DNA of 28,851 bases from an uncultured Desulfobacterales bacterium (GTDB lineage Bacteria > Desulfobacterota > Desulfobacteria > Desulfobacterales > Desulfosudaceae): positions 1-28,851 of the forward strand of contig CAYSMV010000471.1 in assembly GCA_964432245.1 (NCBI GenBank). The letters are read 5' to 3'. This document shows positions 505-7,437 of the stretch, in pieces. Both the position numbers and the translations under genes were made by a program. Each line of letters starts with the position of its first letter. Position 1 is the first letter of the stretch. The notes under the pieces were generated by a model. That model was not told the DNA's origin, made no database searches, and worked only from the letters and a program-made list of their open reading frames with translations.

Positions 505-557
505 TGCTGGTCTTTTACCATATAAAAACCAACTGATTGCTGATACAGGACAAAAAG

Positions 558-1601
558 ATGACATCCATAACATACAAAGACGCAGGGGTGGATATAGACA
601 AGGGCAATGCCTTTGTGAAGGAAATTAAAAAAATCGCCAGAAAAACAAATCGACGGGGCGTTCTTGACGATATCGGCGGTTTCGGGGGACTGTTTTCCCT
701 TGACACTTCCAATTTGAAGAATCCGGTGCTGGTCAGCTCCACCGATGGCGTCGGCACCAAGCTGAAACTCGCCTTCATGACCGGCAAACACGACACCGTC
801 GGGATTGATCTGGTGGCCATGTGTGTTAACGATGTCGCGGTTCAGGGCGCCAGCCCGCTTTTTTTTCTGGATTATCTGGCCATGGGCAAACTGGATCTTC
901 AAATAGCGACCGCGATCATCAAGGGCGTCGGCGAGGGCTGCCAACAGGCCAAATGCGCCCTTATCGGCGGCGAAACAGCGGAAATGCCCGACTTCTATAA
1001 AGAAAACGAGTATGACCTGGCCGGTTTCACGGTCGGCATCGTAAACAACGACCAGATTATCGATGGTTCCGAAATAAGGGTGGGCGATAAAATTATCGGC
1101 CTCGCCTCCAGCGGCCTGCACAGCAACGGCTATTCTCTGGTCCGCAAGATCTGTTTTGATGTCCTGAAACTCAAACCGGAAAAACATATCGACGAATTCG
1201 GCCGGTCCCTGGGAGAAGAGCTGCTGCAACCCACGATAATATATTCCGAAATGCTCAAGCGGCTGATCAAGCTCTTTCCCGTTCACGGCCTGGCCCATAT
1301 TACCGGCGGCGGCATGCCGGACAATATCGTGCGCATTCTTCCCCAGACCTGCGCCGCGGAGATCGCGTGGGGATCATGGGAAATACCGCCGGTTTTTTCC
1401 TTTCTGCAGAAAGGCGGCCAGGTATCCGACGATGAAATGAAACGAACCTTTAATAACGGTATCGGAATGGTCCTGGTGACATCACGGGATAGTTTTCAGG
1501 ATGTTTTGCAAAGCATACAGGCCATGGGAGAAAAGGCGTATCTGATCGGCGAAATTACGGCCCGGGATAAGAAAACATCGCCCCAGATTCAATTCAAATA
1601 A
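558..1601 (+). CDS. purM: Phosphoribosylformylglycinamidine cyclo-ligase (AIR synthase)
   Basis: YKDAGVDIDKG, DGVGTK, GGETAEMP, SSGLHSNGYSL, HITGGG, TFNNGIG motifs; ATG 558 chosen over 537. Confidence 0.98.
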   Translation: MTSITYKDAGVDIDKGNAFVKEIKKIARKTNRRGVLDDIGGFGGLFSLDTSNLKNPVLVSSTDGVGTKLKLAFMTGKHDTVGIDLVAMCVNDVAVQGASPLFFLDYLAMGKLDLQIATAIIKGVGEGCQQAKCALIGGETAEMPDFYKENEYDLAGFTVGIVNNDQIIDGSEIRVGDKIIGLASSGLHSNGYSLVRKICFDVLKLKPEKHIDEFGRSLGEELLQPTIIYSEMLKRLIKLFPVHGLAHITGGGMPDNIVRILPQTCAAEIAWGSWEIPPVFSFLQKGGQVSDDEMKRTFNNGIGMVLVTSRDSFQDVLQSIQAMGEKAYLIGEITARDKKTSPQIQFK

Positions 1602-1602
1602 T

Positions 1603-1722
1603 ATGAAGTCAACCCAAAACCATCACCGTCAAGTCTTTTCAAAACGCCTTCGCGGGGTATTAACCCGCTGGCTGGCGCGTATCGCAGAAGCCAACAAAAA
1701 AACACCCATCTGTACGAGTTGA
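1603..1722 (+). CDS. putative 39-aa small protein
   Basis: ATG 1 nt after purM stop; MKSTQNHHRQVFSKRLRGVLTRWLARIAEANKKTPICTS; fills most of the purM-tsaD gap. Confidence 0.35.
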   Translation: MKSTQNHHRQVFSKRLRGVLTRWLARIAEANKKTPICTS

Positions 1723-1785
1723 CGGATCTCCAGACGTCCGCCGGTCCGGCGGAACAAATAATAATCACTTGGGTTTGCAGGAACA

Positions 1786-2787
1786 ATGAACATCCTGGGC
1801 ATCGAAACCTCCTGCGATGAAACCGCTGCCGCGATTGTGACGGACGGTCATCATATCCTCTCCTCGGTCGTCTCTTCCCAGGTGACCATCCACCGCCCCT
1901 ATGGCGGTGTCGTGCCTGAACTGGCCTCAAGAAAACACATAGAAAATATCGTGCCGGTCGTCCTGCAGGCGATAACGGAAGCCGGGATCACGAATAAGGA
2001 TATAGACGCCCTGGCCGTTACCCAGGGGCCCGGCCTGATCGGCGCTCTGCTGGTGGGCTTTTCCTTTGCCAAGGCCTTTGCCTATGCCCTGAAACGCCCT
2101 CTTGTCGGCGTCAACCACCTGGACGGGCACCTGGCCTCGTTATTCTTAACCGGCGATCCGCCGCCATTTCCCTTTGTGGCTTTGCTGGCATCGGGTGGCC
2201 ACACGGCCATCTACCTTGTCTTGTCAGAAACAAAAGCGACCCTGATGGGGCAGACCAGGGATGACGCGGCCGGAGAGGCCTTTGACAAGGCGGCCAAAAT
2301 CATGGGCCTGGGATATCCGGGAGGAGAAGTAATCGACCGCTATGCCGGCCGGGGAAACCCGGCGGCCATAAAATTCACCCGGCCTTACCTTGATAAGAAC
2401 GCGTTTGACTTCAGCTTCAGCGGCATTAAAACAGCCGTCAGCCGATATGTTCAGTCAATAGGAGATAAACTGGAAGCGGCTATCCCGGATATCGCGGCGG
2501 GGTTCCAGGAAGCGGTGGCGGACGTGCTGTGTTACAAGCTGATTCATGCCGCCGCCGTCAAGCAGGTTCGTCATATCGCCCTGGTCGGCGGGGTGGCGGC
2601 CAATTCCCGGCTGAGAAAAAAAATGAGCGGCCAGGCGGCGGAACGCGGATTGACGCTGCACATTCCGCCGATCGAACTCTGCGGCGATAACGCCGCCATG
2701 ATCGCGGCCGCCGGCTTTTACCGCCTGCAAAACGGCGATTCTCTTCCGCCGGAAAGTGATGTCTATTCCCGGGTAAACCTTTCTTAA
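1786..2787 (+). CDS. tsaD: tRNA N6-adenosine threonylcarbamoyltransferase TsaD
   Basis: GIETSCDETA, VNHLDGH, SGGHT, DDAAGEAFDK, CGDNAAMI motifs. Confidence 0.98.
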   Translation: MNILGIETSCDETAAAIVTDGHHILSSVVSSQVTIHRPYGGVVPELASRKHIENIVPVVLQAITEAGITNKDIDALAVTQGPGLIGALLVGFSFAKAFAYALKRPLVGVNHLDGHLASLFLTGDPPPFPFVALLASGGHTAIYLVLSETKATLMGQTRDDAAGEAFDKAAKIMGLGYPGGEVIDRYAGRGNPAAIKFTRPYLDKNAFDFSFSGIKTAVSRYVQSIGDKLEAAIPDIAAGFQEAVADVLCYKLIHAAAVKQVRHIALVGGVAANSRLRKKMSGQAAERGLTLHIPPIELCGDNAAMIAAAGFYRLQNGDSLPPESDVYSRVNLS

Positions 2788-2863
2788 GACAGCGGGCACA
2801 CCGAACAGCCAAGATATGTAAGGCGGTGAGAACCATTCACTGTTTCAAGTAAGGCTCTAAATT

Positions 2864-3070
2864 TTACTCCTGTTTTTTCACAGAATTTGTGCGGATTACC
2901 CCACTTGTTTTCTGGTAATATTCCGACGTCCTTTTGGCTGCAGTAATTTTGCCTAAACCCAATTTTAAATTATCGTATATTTTCTCGCATCCATCACCTT
3001 TTATTTCCTTTATCGTTGACTTAATACTTCCGCTCCGCCCAATAACGAATTCTATAACTTTTTTTTCCAT
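2864..3070 (-). CDS. DUF2997-like small protein
   Basis: IEFVIGRSG...IKGDGCEKI...LGKI...TSEYYQ pattern; last gene of AAA/DUF1257 operon. Confidence 0.75.
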   Translation of the reverse strand: MEKKVIEFVIGRSGSIKSTIKEIKGDGCEKIYDNLKLGLGKITAAKRTSEYYQKTSGVIRTNSVKKQE

Positions 3071-3074
3071 TGTT

Positions 3075-3452
3075 CTACCCCCAGGAAGTGGCTAATAATC
3101 GAATGGTTCCGTCTTCCTGCGTTGTAACAGATGAAACCTGATATTTCATAGCTCGGACTTTCTTTTTAACGGCCGCGACACTGTACTGCTGCCGCACCTT
3201 GTTCTTAAACGAACTGTCCCTTAAAAACCGCCAATCGCTGTCACCCACCAGTTCCAATTCCCCGCTACTACTGTTTTTTACGATTCGGATTTCCCGGTTA
3301 TATATCATAGTCTTGGCCACCTCTTTTTTTACCGAACGGCCACGTGGGGAATCCGCCGATTCCCTTACAGCAAATCCCATGCTCTGTATGGCTTCTCTCA
3401 AAAGGCCGATATCTGTGACACCCTGAAGCTTAGAATAGATTGTCATTGACAT
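3075..3452 (-). CDS. DUF1257 / Ycf35-like protein
   Basis: LLREAIQSMGF...LELVGDSD...VRQQYSVAAVKKK...QEDGTIRL pattern; AAGGGAG RBS before ATG 3452. Confidence 0.75.
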   Translation of the reverse strand: MSMTIYSKLQGVTDIGLLREAIQSMGFAVRESADSPRGRSVKKEVAKTMIYNREIRIVKNSSSGELELVGDSDWRFLRDSSFKNKVRQQYSVAAVKKKVRAMKYQVSSVTTQEDGTIRLLATSWG

Positions 3453-3472
3453 GATTCTGTCTCCCTTTTGGA

Positions 3473-3700
3473 TTATCCGCAATAAATGCGGCTGTGATTA
3501 TCAACTCTGACCGGGAAAAACTGTTTTGCGTTTACCGCGTCCCAGATCTCTAAAACCAGGGGCGTGGCGGCCGGATCGATCCACTCAATCTCCACACTGC
3601 CATCCCGGTGAATAATTACCTCCTGAAAAACTTTTCCTATGCATCTTTCGTCTCTTGAAATAACCGCCGCCGGCATTTTTATTTTTTTCCGTTCGATCAT
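3473..3700 (-). CDS. hypothetical 75-aa protein ending in YCG
   Basis: AAGGAG RBS; co-oriented inside the operon; EVIIHRDGSVEIE segment. Confidence 0.65.
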   Translation of the reverse strand: MIERKKIKMPAAVISRDERCIGKVFQEVIIHRDGSVEIEWIDPAATPLVLEIWDAVNAKQFFPVRVDNHSRIYCG

Positions 3701-3747
3701 CTTCTATCTCTCCTTTTTAACTGTTATTTATCCAGCCCGGATTAAAA

Positions 3748-5364
3748 TTACCCTTGTTCCCGTATGGTCATAATTTTCCCTGCTTTACCTTGCCGCCACT
3801 CGCTCCGTTGCATCTGCACGATATCCTCGGAGGCCGGTCGTGCTCTTGTCGACGCCCATTCCTTAAGTTGTTGAATATCTTCTGCCATGGTGATGGAAAG
3901 TGGTACCTGATTTTCTATGGCCCTTAACACATCAACAGTTGTCATTTGGTGGCCGTTATCAAAAGCCTCGTAAAGACCTGCGATAATGGCCTGTTCAATC
4001 TCAGCTCCGGAAAACCCGTCTGAGAATTCAGCAATCTGTCGGATATTAAAATCATTCGGATTTTGCCCTTTATTCTTCAAATGGATAGAAACAATTTCCT
4101 CCCGTTCACCCAGACCGGGCAGATCAATAAAAAAAATGTCATCCCAGCGGCCCTTACGAAGCATTTCCGCCGGCAACACTTCCACTGAATTGGCCGTGGC
4201 TACCACAAAGACAGGAGCTGTTTTCTCCTGCATCCAAGTAGCCAGAGAAGCGAAAACCCTGGCCGCGGTACCTGCATCTGAATCCATAGAACTGTTAACA
4301 CCGGCCAGGGCTTTTTCAATTTCATCGATCCAGAGAATACAGGGAGATAAGGCCTCAGCCGCCTTTAATGCCTGCCGGGTACGTTCCTCAGATCCCCCCA
4401 CCTGACTTGTAAACAGGCTGCCGGTATCCAGCCGCAACAGTGGAACTTGCCATAAAGCAGATATCATCCGGGCAGCCAAACTTTTTCCACAACCTGGTAT
4501 ACCCAGCAGCAAAATACCTTTAGGTGTAGGCAGGCCATAGGATTTTGCCCTGGCTGAAAAACCGAGCCGCCGCTGTAACAGCCATTTTTTTAAAAGAGAC
4601 AATCCTCCCGCATCAACTTGGGTCGCCACTTCTACCCATTCCAGTGCGGCAGACATTTTGAGAAGGTTTTTCTTGCTGTCAATAATTGCCCTGATAATGT
4701 CCTCATGGGTAATGAATTGGCCGCTGGCCACTAAACCGGAAAGGCCGCTTTCATATTGACTCATGGTGAGCCCCTGCCCGGCGGTTGCGATTTGTCCAAA
4801 ATCTTCATCAGTTAGGGGCGGCCGAATACTCAATCTTGTTCTACTTAAAATGGTTCTGGCATGTGCCTCCATTTCCTTGCGGGTCGGCAGCGGAAAATCA
4901 TAACGCCAGATCTCATGAGCCAACGATTGTGGCAACATTGTTAATGGTGCCAGGATAATAATGGAACTGTCCTGTTTTTTCAGAATTGTTTTCAGGTCAC
5001 GTAAATGTCTGCGGATCAATCCGTCTTGTAAATATTCGTGAAAATCGAGGAGCAGAAAAACAGCGCCCTGTTTAGGCATGTGAATATCCTTGATCTGCCG
5101 GAGTATTCCTGTTGGATCACGGTAATCAGCATTCGCCCGGCCATGAACGATTTCCGGAACAAGCTCTTTTGTTTGACAAAAATCAACCGTCCACAACCCT
5201 TCACTGATGGTATGGCACCACATTTTCCGGCAAATTTTGATACAGCAAAGTTCAATGGCCTTGATCACCCGTTCCTCTTCTACGCTGGTGATATAAAGGA
5301 CTGGTGTGTTGGCCTTCAGGGCCGTTAAAATTGGCTGGATATGGTTTGTTTCAATATCGTTCAA
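3748..5364 (-). CDS. Ycf46-like tandem AAA+ ATPase (degenerate N-terminal and active C-terminal AAA domain)
   Basis: N-terminal LYITSVEEERV and FLLLDFHEYL; Walker A GIPGCGKS, Walker B ILWIDEIEK, RKGRWD; TTG start. Confidence 0.9.
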   Translation of the reverse strand: MNDIETNHIQPILTALKANTPVLYITSVEEERVIKAIELCCIKICRKMWCHTISEGLWTVDFCQTKELVPEIVHGRANADYRDPTGILRQIKDIHMPKQGAVFLLLDFHEYLQDGLIRRHLRDLKTILKKQDSSIIILAPLTMLPQSLAHEIWRYDFPLPTRKEMEAHARTILSRTRLSIRPPLTDEDFGQIATAGQGLTMSQYESGLSGLVASGQFITHEDIIRAIIDSKKNLLKMSAALEWVEVATQVDAGGLSLLKKWLLQRRLGFSARAKSYGLPTPKGILLLGIPGCGKSLAARMISALWQVPLLRLDTGSLFTSQVGGSEERTRQALKAAEALSPCILWIDEIEKALAGVNSSMDSDAGTAARVFASLATWMQEKTAPVFVVATANSVEVLPAEMLRKGRWDDIFFIDLPGLGEREEIVSIHLKNKGQNPNDFNIRQIAEFSDGFSGAEIEQAIIAGLYEAFDNGHQMTTVDVLRAIENQVPLSITMAEDIQQLKEWASTRARPASEDIVQMQRSEWRQGKAGKIMTIREQG

Positions 5365-5375
5365 TGTTATCGAAC
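5359..5375. promoter_or_regulatory. operator copy 1 (GTTCAATGTTATCGAAC), overlapping the AAA ATPase start codon
   Basis: One mismatch to GTTCGAT-N3-ATCGAAC. Confidence 0.7.
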
Positions 5376-5460
5376 CCTAAAAAAACAGAACCTCATTTAT
5401 AAGCTTTCATGAATAGTAAATCTCCTGTTTCCCGGTGCCGGCGCGATTCTTAACTGATTG

Positions 5461-5483
5461 ATTGTTCGATGCTATCGAACAAT
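5461..5483. promoter_or_regulatory. operator copy 2 (ATTGTTCGAT-gct-ATCGAACAAT)
   Basis: Perfect 10-3-10 palindrome between irrE-like gene and AAA ATPase. Confidence 0.75.
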
Positions 5484-5497
5484 ACGGGCAAAAAAAA

Positions 5498-6199
5498 TTA
5501 TGCTGCCGGCACTGCCTGAGAACGTTTTTTCCAGCCCATTATCTGACGGGTATGATTCACCACCAAGCCCAGCTCCTGAAGCCTGATGATCATGGCCTGG
5601 CGGGAGACATTATCAAAACCCCCGGCCATTCTAACTGCATCAGCGATGCATGGCCAGTTATCAACACAAAGATCAAAACAAAAAGGCATGGACGCAAAAT
5701 TCTTTTCTACGTTAACGATATCGATTACATCCGGTGCAAATGTTTTTTTAAACGCAAAACGCACCAAATCTTCAGGCATTAAAAGGCAGCCGGCAAAATA
5801 ATCAGCCTGCCATTCAATCGGCTTTCTGGCATCTTGCGCCCGGCAGAAAATAGCGTCTTCCAAATCCCCGTACCTGTTGGCAACCGCAAGCAAATGACGG
5901 TGAAGCACCCAGTGTCCGGCTTCATGAGCCATGGTAAAGGCCGCCCGGCCTTTTGATCTCTCATCCAGCAGCCCGGCATTAATGACAACTATCCTCTTTT
6001 TAACGTATGTCGCGCCAAGCACATCTGGCGCATTGATTTGTTCAAAATCGACAAACTGGCAGCGTAACCCCATCATGGCAAGAATATCTTCGATGGGCAC
6101 CGGCGGTTCAATGGACCGCCCGGTTTTTTCTCGAAATTGTGCCAAGATCGCTTTTCCGGCCTGGGCAATCTCGTTTCTGGATAAATAAGGCACGTTCAT
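5498..6199 (-). CDS. ImmA/IrrE family Zn metallopeptidase (Peptidase_M78)
   Basis: FTMAHEAGHWVLH (HEXXH) and EWQADYFAGCLLMP; directly downstream of an XRE gene. Confidence 0.93.
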   Translation of the reverse strand: MNVPYLSRNEIAQAGKAILAQFREKTGRSIEPPVPIEDILAMMGLRCQFVDFEQINAPDVLGATYVKKRIVVINAGLLDERSKGRAAFTMAHEAGHWVLHRHLLAVANRYGDLEDAIFCRAQDARKPIEWQADYFAGCLLMPEDLVRFAFKKTFAPDVIDIVNVEKNFASMPFCFDLCVDNWPCIADAVRMAGGFDNVSRQAMIIRLQELGLVVNHTRQIMGWKKRSQAVPAA

Positions 6200-6202
6200 G
6201 GA

Positions 6203-6574
6203 TTATTTATCAGAGCCTTTCTTTTGTATGACCAGATCCACCAGTTGATTGTGCTTTTCCCAATCATTCTCATCCCAGCAGTTTTCCACGGTTTTGCGTA
6301 AAAAATCAGCAGCGGCCTCATTGGCAAGAATATGCTCAAATTCCCTGCCGGCCAAAAGGATCAGTTCGTTTTCAGTTGCGCTGTCCAGCCGAAGTGTCCG
6401 GCTGATCCCCCTGATGATCGACACATCCGGGGCGGGATGTTTGCCGCTTAAAATACCGGAAAGGTAGCTTTTGGAGATAATTCCCGTCTTGACCAGATCG
6501 GCCTGAGAGCAATCCGCCGCACCCATGAGCGCTTTTAACCGTTTAACAAAAGAAGTGGTATGTTTTATTTCCAT
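6203..6574 (-). CDS. XRE-family HTH transcriptional repressor
   Basis: RLKALM...SQADL...ISKSYLSGILSGK..P helix-turn-helix; ATG 6574 chosen because the promoter lies between 6574 and the ORF-track start. Confidence 0.85.
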   Translation of the reverse strand: MEIKHTTSFVKRLKALMGAADCSQADLVKTGIISKSYLSGILSGKHPAPDVSIIRGISRTLRLDSATENELILLAGREFEHILANEAAADFLRKTVENCWDENDWEKHNQLVDLVIQKKGSDK

Positions 6575-6578
6575 TTTA

Positions 6579-6611
6579 GTTCGATAATATCGAACCAACA
6601 TGCCTTGTCAA
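6579..6611 (-). promoter_or_regulatory. sigma70 promoter of XRE gene overlapped by operator copy 3 (GTTCGATAATATCGAAC, 6579-6595)
   Basis: TTGACA (6611-6606), 16 bp, TATTAT (6589-6584); the -10 sits inside the palindrome. Confidence 0.72.
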
Positions 6612-6640
6612 GATATTTTTGAATTTTTTTTTAACAATTC

Positions 6641-6790
6641 TTGAAGAAATCGTAAAAAGTCGAAATCTATCTTATTCTGCCCCCCCGGCCCCCAAGCCGG
6701 GGTCCAGAAAAAATGAATAATATCAATTTTATACTGGATTCCGGGTCAAGCCCGGAATGACGATGGTAAGACTTTTTACGATTCCATCAA
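6641..6790. mobile_element. 150-bp MITE-like element with 21-bp terminal inverted repeats and two internal REP-like hairpins
   Basis: TTGAAGAAATCGTAAAAAGTC (6641-6661) versus reverse complement of GACTTTTTACGATTCCATCAA (6770-6790), 19/21 identical; hairpins CCCCGGC/GCCGGGG (6683-6702) and ATTCCGGG/CCCGGAAT (6738-6758). Confidence 0.78.
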
Positions 6791-7085
6791 AAATAATGTC
6801 TATGGTTTTTCTCACGGTAACCCCTTTCCTCCTCAAAAGCCTGTAGTCCGTGGCACTCTCTAATGCCAATTCCTGTCCGCACATTGACATAAATGGAAGA
6901 TCCAGCAGAAGATCCCTGGCGATCTTAAAATCCCGGTCACTCTGAAAACCCTGGAGAACTTCCGTCAGGATAATATCGCTCATGATAACGGGTGTATTCC
7001 CAAGCGAAGAATCGAGCCAGTCCGCTTGGAACGTTTGATTACCGTTGAAGTAATCAATCCATACGGACGAATCAACAAGAATCAT
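6729..7085 (-). pseudogene. vapC: VapC PIN-domain toxin, 3'-truncated and fused to MITE sequence
   Basis: MILVDSSVWID, EVLQG, VRKTIDII motifs; after TIDII the frame reads into the MITE (FDGIVKS...IPGLTRNPV) and lacks the usual C-terminal DRDF-type segment. Confidence 0.85.
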
Positions 7086-7276
7086 TTGTCTGACCTCATC
7101 TTATCAAGATCGCCGGACCATTCCAGTTTTCCCCGAAACCGCTTGATTTTTTTCTGACTTTTCACTTGGACCAGAAGTTTCAAGCCCTCTTCTATGGCAT
7201 CCTTTTTCGTTTTGAGACCGGACAACTTAAGCGCCGATGCCATCAGCTTGTCATCTACGACCACATTTGTTCTCAT
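7082..7276 (-). CDS. vapB: VapB antitoxin (type II TA)
   Basis: MRTNVVVDDKLM...KTKKDAIEEGL...RGKLEWSGDLDKMR; 4-nt overlap with vapC. Confidence 0.92.
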   Translation of the reverse strand: MRTNVVVDDKLMASALKLSGLKTKKDAIEEGLKLLVQVKSQKKIKRFRGKLEWSGDLDKMRSDK

Positions 7277-7289
7277 TTCCTGCCTCCAA

Positions 7290-7316
7290 TGTGTATAAAT
7301 AATTATATTATACACA
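7290..7316. promoter_or_regulatory. vapBC operator palindrome overlapping a -10
   Basis: TGTGTATAA-N9-TTATACACA perfect 9-bp arms; TATAAT on minus strand at 7312-7307. Confidence 0.7.
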
Positions 7317-7437
7317 CTTGCAGTTGGGTTTGAAAGAATTCTTTGTGCTGCCTGTAACCGTATAAATATTGCCTGCCCGCTTGACCTTAAAAATAACGGA
7401 GCCCTTCCTTGGATCCTGTTTGTGATAACACCTTATA

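What the first reader, a model, noticed from the sequence alone, without database searches (positions are those of the whole stretch)
5359..6595. Three copies of a 17-bp operator GTTCGAT-N3-ATCGAAC wire the repressor to the AAA operon
Copies: 6579-6595 (over the XRE -10), 5464-5480 (perfect, extends to 10-bp arms) and 5359-5375 (one mismatch, over the AAA TTG start). I noticed no other copy in the window. This is direct sequence evidence that one dimeric regulator controls both its own promoter and the effector operon. The half-sites resemble the Firmicute LexA (Cheo) half-site but in the opposite arrangement and spacing, so it is probably the XRE's own site.
Basis: partly seen in the sequence, partly recalled or inferred. 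Interest (0 to 1): 0.72.

Follow-up and report, generated by a model that had tools for sequence, protein, structure and literature searches.

The report
Private operators of a repressor-protease switch
Three copies of a 17-bp palindrome are real, locus-private binding sites through which a cleavable repressor (paired with a DNA-damage-type protease) most likely controls both its own promoter and a neighbouring ATPase operon of unknown function, and the same layout recurs in dozens of other bacteria.

Summary
GTTCGAT-N3-ATCGAAC occurs three times in the window (0.13 expected) and nowhere else in the 2.77-Mb genome assembly.

All genes lie on the minus strand: xre, immA (CapP/IrrE-like Zn peptidase), a AAA+ ATPase, a 75-aa ORF, DUF1257 and DUF2997.

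- **O1 (6579-6595):** it carries the -10 of a near-consensus promoter (TTGACA-16-TATTAT) in its centre. The xre ATG follows 4 nt after the site, so the mRNA is probably leaderless.
- **O2 (5464-5480):** it lies 9 nt after a T8 tract that starts right after the immA stop.
- **O3 (5359-5375):** it covers the AAA TTG start, 105 bp from O2.

Five orthologous cassettes in different genomic contexts keep O1 and O2 at the same positions. About 40 more distant xre-immA modules do too, with AAA+ or DnaB cargo.

O2 has no recognisable promoter or terminator hairpin, so I read it as a roadblock that keeps basal xre transcription out of the cargo. This step is inferred.

[quoted passage not shown] This one differs in its co-directional cargo and its conserved internal T-tract plus operator. 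I class it as a new variant of a known kind, of moderate interest. Binding and cleavage are untested.

The parts
6579..6595 (.). O1: operator GTTCGAT-aat-ATCGAAC overlapping the xre -10
   Evidence: It sits at the same place (ending 3-4 nt before the xre ATG) in all 5 distinct orthologous cassettes and in 39 dereplicated family loci.
6584..6611 (-). P_xre: -35 TTGACA (6611-6606), 16-nt spacer, -10 TATTAT (6589-6584). The ATG at 6574 is 9 nt after the -10, so the mRNA is leaderless or nearly so.
   Evidence: 11 of 12 matches, the best promoter-like site in 3000-7400. TCTTGACA-N10-operator is conserved in orthologs. The spacer is 16 nt in 44 of 47 family sites.
6203..6574 (-). xre: 123-aa HTH repressor (CapH/DdrO/SinR-like architecture) with an invariant AADFLR motif at residues 89-93
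   Evidence: Pfam HTH_31/HTH_3; weak PADLOC capH match; alignment A1; AF2 model with an HTH plus two long C-terminal helices.
5498..6199 (-). immA: 233-aa M78 Zn-metallopeptidase, CapP/IrrE-like (HEAGH; invariant C119 and E129)
   Evidence: Pfam PF06114 1e-10; PADLOC capP 7.8e-24; PDB 7t5t by sequence and by fold, E 1.5e-6; invariant residues.
5490..5497 (-). T8 tract on the coding strand, starting directly after the immA stop codon and ending 9 nt upstream of O2
   Evidence: The ATA-T7/8-R-N8-operator arrangement is conserved in 42 dereplicated loci, with exactly 9 nt between tract and operator in 38 of 42.
5461..5483 (.). O2: perfect operator (core 5464-5480) with 10-bp arms, in the immA-AAA spacer
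   Evidence: Present 18-41 nt after the immA stop in orthologs and family loci.
5359..5375 (.). O3: operator with one mismatch, over the AAA TTG start; 105 bp centre to centre from O2
   Evidence: A third site at 105 bp (L084) and 103 bp (L092) from O2 is present in orthologs, and absent in L087, L093 and L089.
3748..5364 (-). AAA+ ATPase (classical AAA clade; the C-terminal half carries the ATPase domain): first cargo gene
   Evidence: Pfam PF00004 6.9e-26. PADLOC IetA and NCBIfam FtsH/PAN matches cover the ATPase domain only. More than 587 homologous loci across phyla.
3473..3700 (-). 75-aa ORF with no family match, conserved in the cassette
   Evidence: An ORF of 72-80 aa sits at the same place in L084, L087, L089 and L092.
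3075..3482 (-). DUF1257 (Ycf35-like) protein
   Evidence: Pfam PF06868 3.1e-10; conserved in orthologous cassettes.
2864..3070 (-). DUF2997 protein, last gene of the cassette
   Evidence: Pfam PF11211 6.6e-9; conserved in orthologous cassettes.

Best explanation
The three palindromes are operators for the XRE repressor encoded in the same six-gene, single-strand cassette: xre, immA, AAA+, a 75-aa ORF, DUF1257, DUF2997.

O1 holds the -10 hexamer of the strong, leaderless xre promoter in its centre. Bound repressor therefore occludes its own promoter (negative autoregulation).

O2 sits just after immA, and in this clade O3 sits one hundred bases further on, on the same DNA face, over the AAA start. 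Together they stop transcription from reaching the cargo. The most likely mechanism is a protein roadblock to polymerases reading through from P_xre. In this way basal autoregulated expression of repressor and protease is uncoupled from the cargo.

When the ImmA/CapP-like metallopeptidase is activated, it cleaves the repressor in its C-terminal oligomerisation helix. By analogy the activator is single-stranded DNA made during DNA damage or phage infection, and the predicted cut is at the invariant AADFL|R. All three sites then empty at once and the whole operon is expressed.

What is shown: the sites, their statistics, their privacy to the locus, their positional conservation, the promoter geometry and the protein families.

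What is inferred: binding by XRE, roadblock rather than promoter occlusion at O2 and O3, cleavage, and the ssDNA signal.
For: - **Statistics and privacy.** There are 3 sites against 0.13 expected. They are the only ones with up to 1 mismatch in the genome. In two other genomes that carry the cassette, every perfect match lies inside it.
- **Position in orthologs.** O1 is TCTTGACA-N10-operator-N3/4-ATG, and O2 follows the immA stop, in L084, L087, L089, L092 and L093, whose flanking genes differ.
- **Family level.** 39 O1 and 42 O2 dereplicated sites show sharply bounded conservation with flanks near zero information. The sites go with xre-immA whether the cargo is AAA+ (12 loci) or DnaB (11 loci). 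None of the 80 best AAA homologue loci showed a tblastn match to this xre or immA.
- **Protein-DNA match.** Recognition-helix residues S34, Y37 and S39 are invariant, as are the outer GTTC and GAAC bases.
- **Single-operon evidence.** P_xre is the best sigma-70-like site in 3000-7400, and no terminator-like site lies in the immA-AAA spacer. At O2, any -35 match is no better than at control positions, and no hairpin lies upstream of the T tract. In family loci the cargo start codon lies only 3 to about 45 nt after O2, which leaves no room for a downstream promoter.
- **Switch proteins.** ImmA matches CapP by PADLOC at 7.8e-24. Its best fold matches are CapP 7t5t, then PprI/IrrE. HExxH, E129 and C119 are invariant. 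The XRE model has an HTH plus a two-helix C-terminal domain, and its invariant AADFLR parallels the CapH F82|R83 cleavage site in the first C-terminal helix.
- **Precedent.** An XRE-family repressor, SinR-SlrR, attenuates transcription from sites inside an operon.
Against: - No binding, cleavage or expression data exist for this protein or locus.
- The XRE matches the PADLOC capH profile only weakly (E 4.8e-4), and by fold it is a generic XRE HTH.
- ImmA is about 50 residues shorter than CapP, and the fold match is moderate (TMq 0.51).
- Published capH/capP pairs are divergent from their cargo. The roadblock role of O2 therefore has no direct precedent in that family.
- A weak promoter cannot be excluded. 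Candidates are TACTAT at 5418-5413 between O2 and O3, the -10-like TAACAT inside O3, or one overlapping O2.
- O3 is missing in some orthologs, so it is not essential.
- The family sites were collected with patterns that impose GTTC-N9-GAAC, TTGAC or the T-run. Conservation at those imposed positions is partly by construction.
Confidence: 0.75

Rival explanations
1. O2 and O3 are classical promoter operators. A separate cargo promoter lies in the immA-AAA spacer. XRE represses it by occlusion, or by an O2-O3 loop around it (as in the gal operon), not by blocking read-through.
For: O2 and O3 are 105 bp apart, about 10 helical turns, in the window and L084, and 103 bp apart in L092. A block conserved between the window and L084 contains a -10-like TACTAT (5418-5413) midway between them. 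The O3 centre reads TAACAT or TAGCAT, which is -10-like, in the window, L084 and L092. The T-run at O2 occupies exactly the place the -35 hexamer occupies at O1, 10 nt before the operator.
Against: No acceptable -35 accompanies any candidate (my reading). Across 42 loci the -35 score at either O2 promoter model is no better than at control positions. The essential A at -10 position 2 is present in only 11 of 42 O2 centres, against 18 of 39 for O1. Orthologs with a single operator (L087, L089) have no O2-O3 loop. The window and L084 are too close (90% XRE identity) for the shared block to count as a footprint.
Confidence: 0.3
2. The palindromes act as RNA hairpins (processing, stability or termination signals) rather than as protein-binding DNA.
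For: Each site can form a 7-bp stem with a 3-nt loop. O2 can form 10 bp. O3 would sequester the TTG start with a G-U pair. These follow directly from the sequence.
Against: O1 contains the -10, so it lies upstream of the transcription start and is mostly not transcribed. Family variants break complementarity instead of compensating: GTTCTAT...ATCGAAC and GTTCGAT...ATAGAAC give mismatched pairs. No U-run follows any of the three hairpins on either strand, so none looks like an intrinsic terminator. No Rfam match.
Confidence: 0.04
3. A host global regulator binds the sites, either LexA (Cheo-like halves) or another factor, so the cassette belongs to a chromosomal SOS-type regulon.
For: The halves GTTCG and CGAAC are those of the Firmicute LexA box in swapped order (own knowledge of the Cheo box CGAAC-N4-GTTCG). 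The actinobacterial ClgR box GTTCGC-5N-GCG has similar outer bases.
Against: No site exists outside the cassette in three genomes, so there is no regulon. No LexA above the family cut-off was found in the assembly, which is only 71% complete. The arrangement and spacing differ from the Cheo box. The site co-migrates with xre-immA across phylogenetically scattered loci; this immA type was found in only 8 of 401 sampled genomes of the phylum.
Confidence: 0.03

Closest known systems
CapH/CapP regulators of CBASS and other defence operons (Lau et al. 2022, bioRxiv 10.1101/2022.04.27.489752; Calloji et al. 2026, 10.64898/2026.05.16.725639)
   Same: An adjacent small HTH repressor and an M78 HExxH peptidase. 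The peptidase gives the best sequence, profile and fold match to CapP. An invariant Cys lies in the loop between HExxH and the third Zn ligand, as in the CapP cysteine switch. The repressor has an HTH plus a two-helix C-terminal domain, with an invariant hydrophobic-Arg motif where CapH is cut.
   Different: Published pairs are encoded upstream of their cargo on the opposite strand and share its promoter region, with one 22-bp site upstream of the -35. Here everything is co-directional. The autoregulatory site overlies the -10, and a second conserved site with a T-tract lies after the peptidase gene. The peptidase is about 50 residues shorter. The cargo (AAA+/DUF1257/DUF2997, or DnaB) is not among the described cargos. 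Only the ATPase domain of the AAA+ gene matches PADLOC models (IetA, TRIP13), and the other three cargo genes match none.
ImmR/ImmA of ICEBs1 and phage phi105; DdrO/IrrE (PprI) of Deinococcus
   Same: An XRE-type repressor is inactivated by a cognate M78 metalloprotease on DNA damage. immR-immA are co-transcribed and autoregulated (as summarised, plus own knowledge). The IrrE/PprI structures are the next-best fold matches after CapP. DdrO is cut at Leu|Arg (own knowledge), which resembles AADFL|R.
   Different: No integrase, excisionase or phage genes are in or next to the cassette. There is no genome-wide regulon like the Deinococcus RDRM regulon. The operator sequence is unrelated to RDRM (own knowledge).
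SinR (and SinR-SlrR) of Bacillus subtilis
   Same: XRE HTH plus a helical multimerisation domain. The 7-bp half-site GTTCTYT is close to GTTC[G/T]AT. SinR is among the fold matches, and NCBIfam gives a weak SlrR match. SinR-SlrR attenuates transcription from sites inside an operon, the mode proposed here for O2.
   Different: SinR is antagonised by the binding partners SinI and SlrR, not by proteolysis. No M78 peptidase partner is involved. Sequence similarity is marginal, well below the family cut-off.
Restriction-modification controller (C) proteins (C.AhdI, C.Esp1396I, C.BclI)
   Same: Small XRE dimers or tetramers that autoregulate from palindromic boxes overlapping their own, often leaderless, promoter. 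They are among the top fold matches for the HTH domain.
   Different: C-proteins lack the long C-terminal domain and a protease partner. They act as concentration-dependent activator-repressors of R-M genes (own knowledge).

Membership tests
CapH/CapP-type repressor-peptidase switch | Adjacent genes for an HTH repressor and an M78 (ImmA/IrrE) HExxH metallopeptidase | tested here: met
   Pfam HTH_31/HTH_3 and PF06114; PADLOC capP 7.8e-24 and capH 4.8e-4. The genes are 3 nt apart.
CapH/CapP-type repressor-peptidase switch | Peptidase active site: HExxH plus a downstream Glu ligand; optional cysteine-switch loop | tested here: met
   H92, E93, H96, E129 and C119 are invariant in 40 homologues. 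The region aligns to CapP 7t5t. The Cys lies 10 residues further from the HExxH than in Thauera CapP, so its switch role is inferred.
CapH/CapP-type repressor-peptidase switch | Three-domain peptidase fold (peptidase, HTH-like linker, C-terminal GAF) that binds ssDNA | tested here: inconclusive
   The AF2 model (pLDDT 87.7) best matches CapP 7t5t over 222 columns, but TMq is only 0.51. The protein is 233 aa against 278-291 aa. ssDNA binding is not testable here.
CapH/CapP-type repressor-peptidase switch | Repressor is an N-terminal HTH plus a two-helix C-terminal oligomerisation domain, cleaved in its first helix | tested here: inconclusive
   The predicted architecture fits: HTH at 8-60, helices at 65-97 and 102-119. 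An invariant AADFLR lies at 89-93. Cleavage itself cannot be tested with these tools.
CapH/CapP-type repressor-peptidase switch | Regulator pair encoded upstream of, and divergent from, the cargo operon, sharing its promoter region | tested here: not met
   All six genes are on one strand in the window and in all orthologs. The published arrangement is divergent.
ICE/prophage immunity module (ImmR/ImmA) | Embedded in a mobile element with integrase, excisionase, conjugation or phage genes under its control | tested here: not met
   Within the region examined (537-7315) the neighbours are tsaD, an AIR-synthase-like gene and vapBC. Ortholog flanks vary and have no integrase next to the module. 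One locus has a DDE transposase 0.9 kb downstream of the cassette's last conserved gene (DUF2997).
LexA (Cheo-type) SOS box | CGAAC-N4-GTTCG arrangement, present before SOS genes genome-wide, with a LexA encoded in the genome | tested here: not met
   The arrangement is GTTCG-N7-CGAAC. No sites lie outside the cassette. No LexA above the cut-off in the 71%-complete assembly.
SinR-type operator and repressor | GTTCTYT half-sites bound by a tetrameric SinR that is antagonised by SinI/SlrR | tested here: inconclusive
   The half-site is similar. The NCBIfam SlrR match scores 22.6 bits against a cut-off of 250. The partner here is a peptidase, not a SinI-like protein.

The most novel reading that the evidence does not exclude
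The conserved unit ATA-T7/8-R-N8-operator after immA may be a repressor-dependent terminator. A polymerase reading through from P_xre stalls against operator-bound XRE with its RNA:DNA hybrid on the U/A tract, and releases the transcript. The protein does the job of the terminator hairpin.

CapP-type peptidases are activated best by T-rich single-stranded DNA. The exposed non-template T-tract in such a stalled bubble could therefore also present the activating ligand right beside the substrate.

If so, this would be a compact, portable device. It would let a co-directional cargo, including an essential-looking dnaB in some genomes, be insulated from and then released with its own regulator genes.
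Probability: 0.2. Interest if true: 0.75.

Novelty: new variant of a known kind. Interest (0 to 1): 0.55.

Why it matters
The finding gives a defined, testable cis-code (TGTTCGAT-N3-ATCGAACA, 16-nt promoter geometry, T-tract plus internal operator) for a widespread but uncharacterised branch of the CapH/CapP, ImmR/ImmA and DdrO/IrrE switches.

Such switches are now seen as the way many defence and stress operons sense DNA damage. The published examples are divergent from their cargo. This branch shows how the same logic can be wired co-directionally.

It also places the Ycf46-like AAA+/DUF1257 (Ycf35)/DUF2997 gene set under a damage-type switch. These genes are conserved from cyanobacteria and plastids to Desulfobacterota, and I know of no established molecular function for them. 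That gives a handle on when the genes are needed. The same module in front of dnaB in other genomes hints at damage-responsive control of a replicative-type helicase.

Tried and rejected
1. **A conserved xre-immA partnership in the AAA family.** tblastn of the window's XRE and ImmA against the 80 best AAA loci found none. The switch is therefore not a general feature of the AAA family.
2. **A genome-wide regulon.** Pattern scans of the own genome and of G401 and G402 found only cassette sites plus a few one-mismatch hits at about chance level. A strict scan of G314 and G067 missed their diverged sites and was uninformative.
3. **An intrinsic terminator at the T-tract.** Rejected. No hairpin lies upstream: mean MFE is -5.1 kcal/mol and z is -0.45 over 42 loci.
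4. **A sigma-70 promoter at O2.** Two models were tried: a -10 of the form nATATT before the T-run, or a -10 in the operator centre with the T-run as the -35. Neither has a -35 better than control positions, and A at -10 position 2 is not enriched. Sigma-54 and Bacteroidetes-type motifs were checked by eye and do not fit.
5. **A known RNA family.** Rfam gave none.
6. **Covariation between recognition helix and operator.** Both are essentially invariant, which is consistent but not discriminating.
7. **The 5-aa mini-ORF (5410-5393) as a leader peptide.** It is not conserved as a peptide in L084.
8. **Whether the dnaB next to the module is the genome's only dnaB.** The genome of L094 is not held.
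9. **Defence-system identity of the cargo.** PADLOC matched only the ATPase domain (to IetA and TRIP13). It gave nothing for the 75-aa ORF, DUF1257 or DUF2997.
Full report
**1. Observation**

The motif GTTCGAT-N3-ATCGAAC occurs at three places:
- 6579-6595, no mismatch;
- 5464-5480, no mismatch;
- 5359-5375, one mismatch.

No further match with up to two mismatches exists in the 28.9-kb window. Dinucleotide-preserving shuffles expect 0.13 matches, and none of 100 shuffles reached three. The middle copy extends to perfect 10-bp arms at 5461-5483. In the whole assembly these are the only matches with up to one mismatch. The assembly is 2.77 Mb in 536 contigs and 71% complete. The extended family pattern adds only one unrelated one-mismatch hit.

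**2. Anatomy**

All relevant genes are on the minus strand:

| Gene | Coordinates | Note |
|---|---|---|
| xre | 6574-6203 | 123 aa, HTH_31/HTH_3 |
| immA | 6199-5498 | 233 aa, Peptidase_M78, HEAGH |
| AAA+ ATPase | 5364-3748 | TTG start |
| 75-aa ORF | 3700-3473 | no family match |
| DUF1257 | 3482-3075 | |
| DUF2997 | 3070-2864 | |

The 132-aa xre ORF starting at 6601 is a listing artefact. All orthologs are 122-126 aa and begin at the equivalent of 6574.

The best sigma-70-like promoter in 3000-7400 is TTGACA (6611-6606), a 16-nt spacer and TATTAT (6589-6584), with 11 of 12 matches. Its -10 hexamer is the last T of the left operator arm, the 3-nt spacer, and the AT of the right arm. The ATG follows 9 nt after the -10, so the xre mRNA is leaderless or nearly so (direct reading).

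O2 lies 9 nt downstream of a T8 tract (5497-5490), which starts immediately after the immA stop. O3 lies 105 bp further on, centre to centre, and covers the AAA TTG start. Its single mismatch (ATCGAAC to ATTGAAC) creates that TTG. N-terminal alignment shows no other canonical start upstream of the conserved AAA core. No terminator-like site lies between immA and AAA.

**3. Orthologous cassettes**

XRE homologues of 69-90% identity lie in the same six-gene, single-strand cassette in at least five distinct Desulfosudaceae or Thermodesulfobacteriota assemblies. Their flanking genes are unrelated: an RNA-repair/conflict island, vapBC plus AAA_14, tRNA synthetases, and others.

In every one:
- O1 is TCTTGACA-N10-GTTCGAT-nnn-ATCGAAC-N3-ATG;
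- the spacer varies (gta, ata, aga, atc, att) yet always gives a TnnnAT -10;
- O2 follows a T7-8 run after the immA stop.

A third site occurs 105 bp (L084) or 103 bp (L092) from O2, and is absent in L087/L093 and L089. One metagenomic variant (L086) has a 10-bp deletion that removes the left arm of O3.

In the genomes that hold L092 (4.8 Mb) and L089 (2.6 Mb), all perfect matches are inside the cassette. The few one-mismatch hits elsewhere are at about the chance rate.

**4. The site goes with xre-immA, not with the cargo**

The AAA+ protein has hundreds of homologues across bacterial phyla and archaea, at about 36-46% identity. None of the best 80 loci showed a tblastn match to this xre-immA pair.

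ImmA homologues of 41-56% identity from metagenomes and MAGs tell the opposite story. They repeatedly show both O1 and O2:
- O1 as TCTTGACA-N9/10-TGTTCGAT-nnn-AT(A/C)GAACA before xre;
- O2 as ATA-T7-R-N8-TGTTCnAT-nnn-ATCGAACA after immA.

After dereplication there are 39 O1 and 42 O2 sites. Information content is high only in these blocks and near zero in the flanks. The search patterns imposed GTTC-N9-GAAC, TTGAC and the T-run. The additional conserved positions were not imposed. These are TC before TTGACA, T before GTTC, the inner GAT/ATC, the A after GAAC, and ATA before the T-run.

Geometry is tight:
- the O1 spacer is 16 nt in 44 of 47 sites;
- the T-run is 7 nt in 29 of 42 sites;
- the distance from T-run to operator is exactly 9 nt in 38 of 42 sites.

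The gene directly downstream on the same strand is the AAA+ cassette in 12 loci, sometimes with DUF2997 first (for example G314). It is a full-length DnaB helicase in 11 loci. A more diverged ImmA subgroup lacks this operator and carries ARPP-1, baeRF, RecC, HU-like or AAA_16 genes. This immA type was found in only 8 of 401 sampled genomes of the phylum, so it is an accessory module.

**5. The proteins**

ImmA:
- It matches the PADLOC capP profile at 7.8e-24 and Thauera CapP (7t5t) by sequence.
- Its AF2 model (pLDDT 87.7) has CapP as best structural match (E 1.5e-6, 222 columns, TMq 0.51). Deinococcus PprI/IrrE follow, including the ssDNA complex.
- H92, E93, H96, E129 and a loop cysteine C119 are invariant in 40 homologues. 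This recalls the CapP cysteine switch.

XRE:
- It is a generic XRE HTH by fold. Matches include C-proteins, ClgR, SinR, the CapH N-terminal domain and the DdrO N-terminal domain.
- It has two long C-terminal helices, the architecture of CapH, DdrO and SinR.
- Across 26 homologues the recognition-helix residues S34, Y37 and S39 are invariant, as is the motif A89-D-F-L-R93.
- CapH is cut between F82 and R83 in the first helix of its C-terminal domain. DdrO is cut at Leu|Arg (own knowledge). AADFL|R is therefore the predicted ImmA cleavage site (inference).

**6. Mechanism**

Shown: the operators, their privacy to the locus, their conservation and the promoter geometry.

Inferred with good support: XRE binds them, and O1 gives negative autoregulation by occluding the -10.

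For O2 and O3 two models remain. I favour a roadblock to read-through from P_xre, for these reasons:
- There is no intrinsic terminator between immA and the cargo.
- No -35 better than control accompanies either possible -10 at O2.
- The critical A at -10 position 2 is not enriched, at 11 of 42.
- In family loci the cargo start codon lies only 3 to about 45 nt after O2, so transcription must come from upstream.
- The co-directional layout needs something to uncouple basal repressor and protease synthesis from the cargo.
- SinR-SlrR provides a precedent for an XRE-family factor that attenuates transcription inside an operon.

The alternative is a weak cargo promoter. It would be repressed by occlusion or by an in-phase O2-O3 loop, with candidate -10s TACTAT at 5418-5413 or TAACAT inside O3. 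This is not excluded, and I give it about 0.3.

The role of the invariant T-tract is unexplained. No hairpin precedes it, so it is not a standard terminator. My speculative reading is a repressor-dependent terminator, in which a stalled polymerase sits on a U:A hybrid. CapP prefers poly-T ssDNA, so a further role for the tract in local activation is conceivable but untested.

**7. Comparison with known systems and novelty**

In function the module works like CapH/CapP, ImmR/ImmA and DdrO/IrrE.

As a member of the CapH/CapP family:
- Met: gene pairing, active site, cysteine loop and repressor architecture.
- Inconclusive: the GAF-type C-terminal domain (a shorter protein, TM 0.51).
- Not met: the published divergent orientation.

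It is not an ICE or prophage immunity module, because it has no integrase or phage genes. It is not a LexA box.

The half-site resembles the SinR GTTCTYT, and the outer bases resemble the ClgR box. These are resemblances only.

Four features are new relative to the literature I could search. They are the co-directional wiring, the -10-embedded O1 with a leaderless start, the conserved T-tract plus internal operator, and the AAA+/DUF1257/DUF2997 and DnaB cargos. Only five papers in the library mention either DUF, none in this context. I therefore class it as a new variant of a known kind.

**8.

Another first-stage note on the same stretch (e1-5315969) calls the cargo a Ycf46-AAA/DUF1257/DUF2997 module under an XRE plus IrrE/ImmA switch. 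I confirmed the DUF and switch assignments. I did not test Ycf46 identity beyond finding cyanobacterial homologues at 37-46% identity.

Noticed in passing
L094:4613-7186, L095:4613-7308, and 9 metagenome loci (e.g. L124, L126, L138, L140, L155, L156): The same xre-immA module, with the same O1 and the same T-tract plus O2, sits directly upstream of a full-length DnaB helicase gene (DnaB N- and C-terminal domains). The dnaB start lies only 3-45 nt after O2. Whether this is the genome's only replicative helicase could not be checked, because the genome is not held.
   Followed up: partly
family loci, e.g. L119:3598 and 4722; L146:1156 and 2278: In many family members O1 reads GTTCGAT-nnn-ATAGAAC while O2 reads GTTCTAT-nnn-ATCGAAC. 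O2 is thus the reverse complement of O1, so the two pseudo-palindromes face each other across xre-immA, about 1.1 kb apart. In the window's clade both are symmetric. The reason is unexplained.
   Followed up: no
L086:3474-3490 versus L084:7200-7216: A metagenomic variant of the closest ortholog has a 10-bp deletion that removes the left arm of O3 (GTTCTTTAAGGGTTCAATAGC becomes GTTCTTTAGC). This is a natural operator-loss allele.
   Followed up: no
window 5393-5410 (-): A five-codon mini-ORF (MKAYK*) follows a GGAGA motif between O2 and O3. Its DNA is part of a block conserved with L084, but the encoded peptide is not conserved.
   Followed up: partly
window 5379-5385 (-): A second T7 tract lies 3 nt upstream of O3, not 9 nt as at O2. 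An AGGG motif between the tract and O3 is the only Shine-Dalgarno-like sequence for the TTG start.
   Followed up: no
window 6729-7315 (-): A vapB-vapC (PIN) toxin-antitoxin pair lies immediately upstream of the cassette. PIN-type TA pairs also flank the cassette in L087, L093 and L092.
   Followed up: no
window 6660-6760: A G/C-rich palindromic element (ccggcttgggggccgggggg, then gggcttgacccggaatcc) lies between vapC and P_xre. Only sub-threshold Rfam sRNA hits fall there, with E 0.1-0.3. It is possibly a REP-like element or the vapBC terminator.
   Followed up: no
L084:1-5924: The closest ortholog is embedded in an apparent RNA-repair/conflict island: RF-1-like, M23 peptidase, Macro, cpYpsA, methyltransferase, RNA ligase, KTI12/HD and a metallophosphatase.
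   Followed up: no
L098 (G314:C74), L121, L153, L158: An alternative cassette order, xre-immA-[O2]-DUF2997-like small gene-AAA+, occurs in more distant relatives. The cargo gene set is thus kept but permuted.
   Followed up: partly
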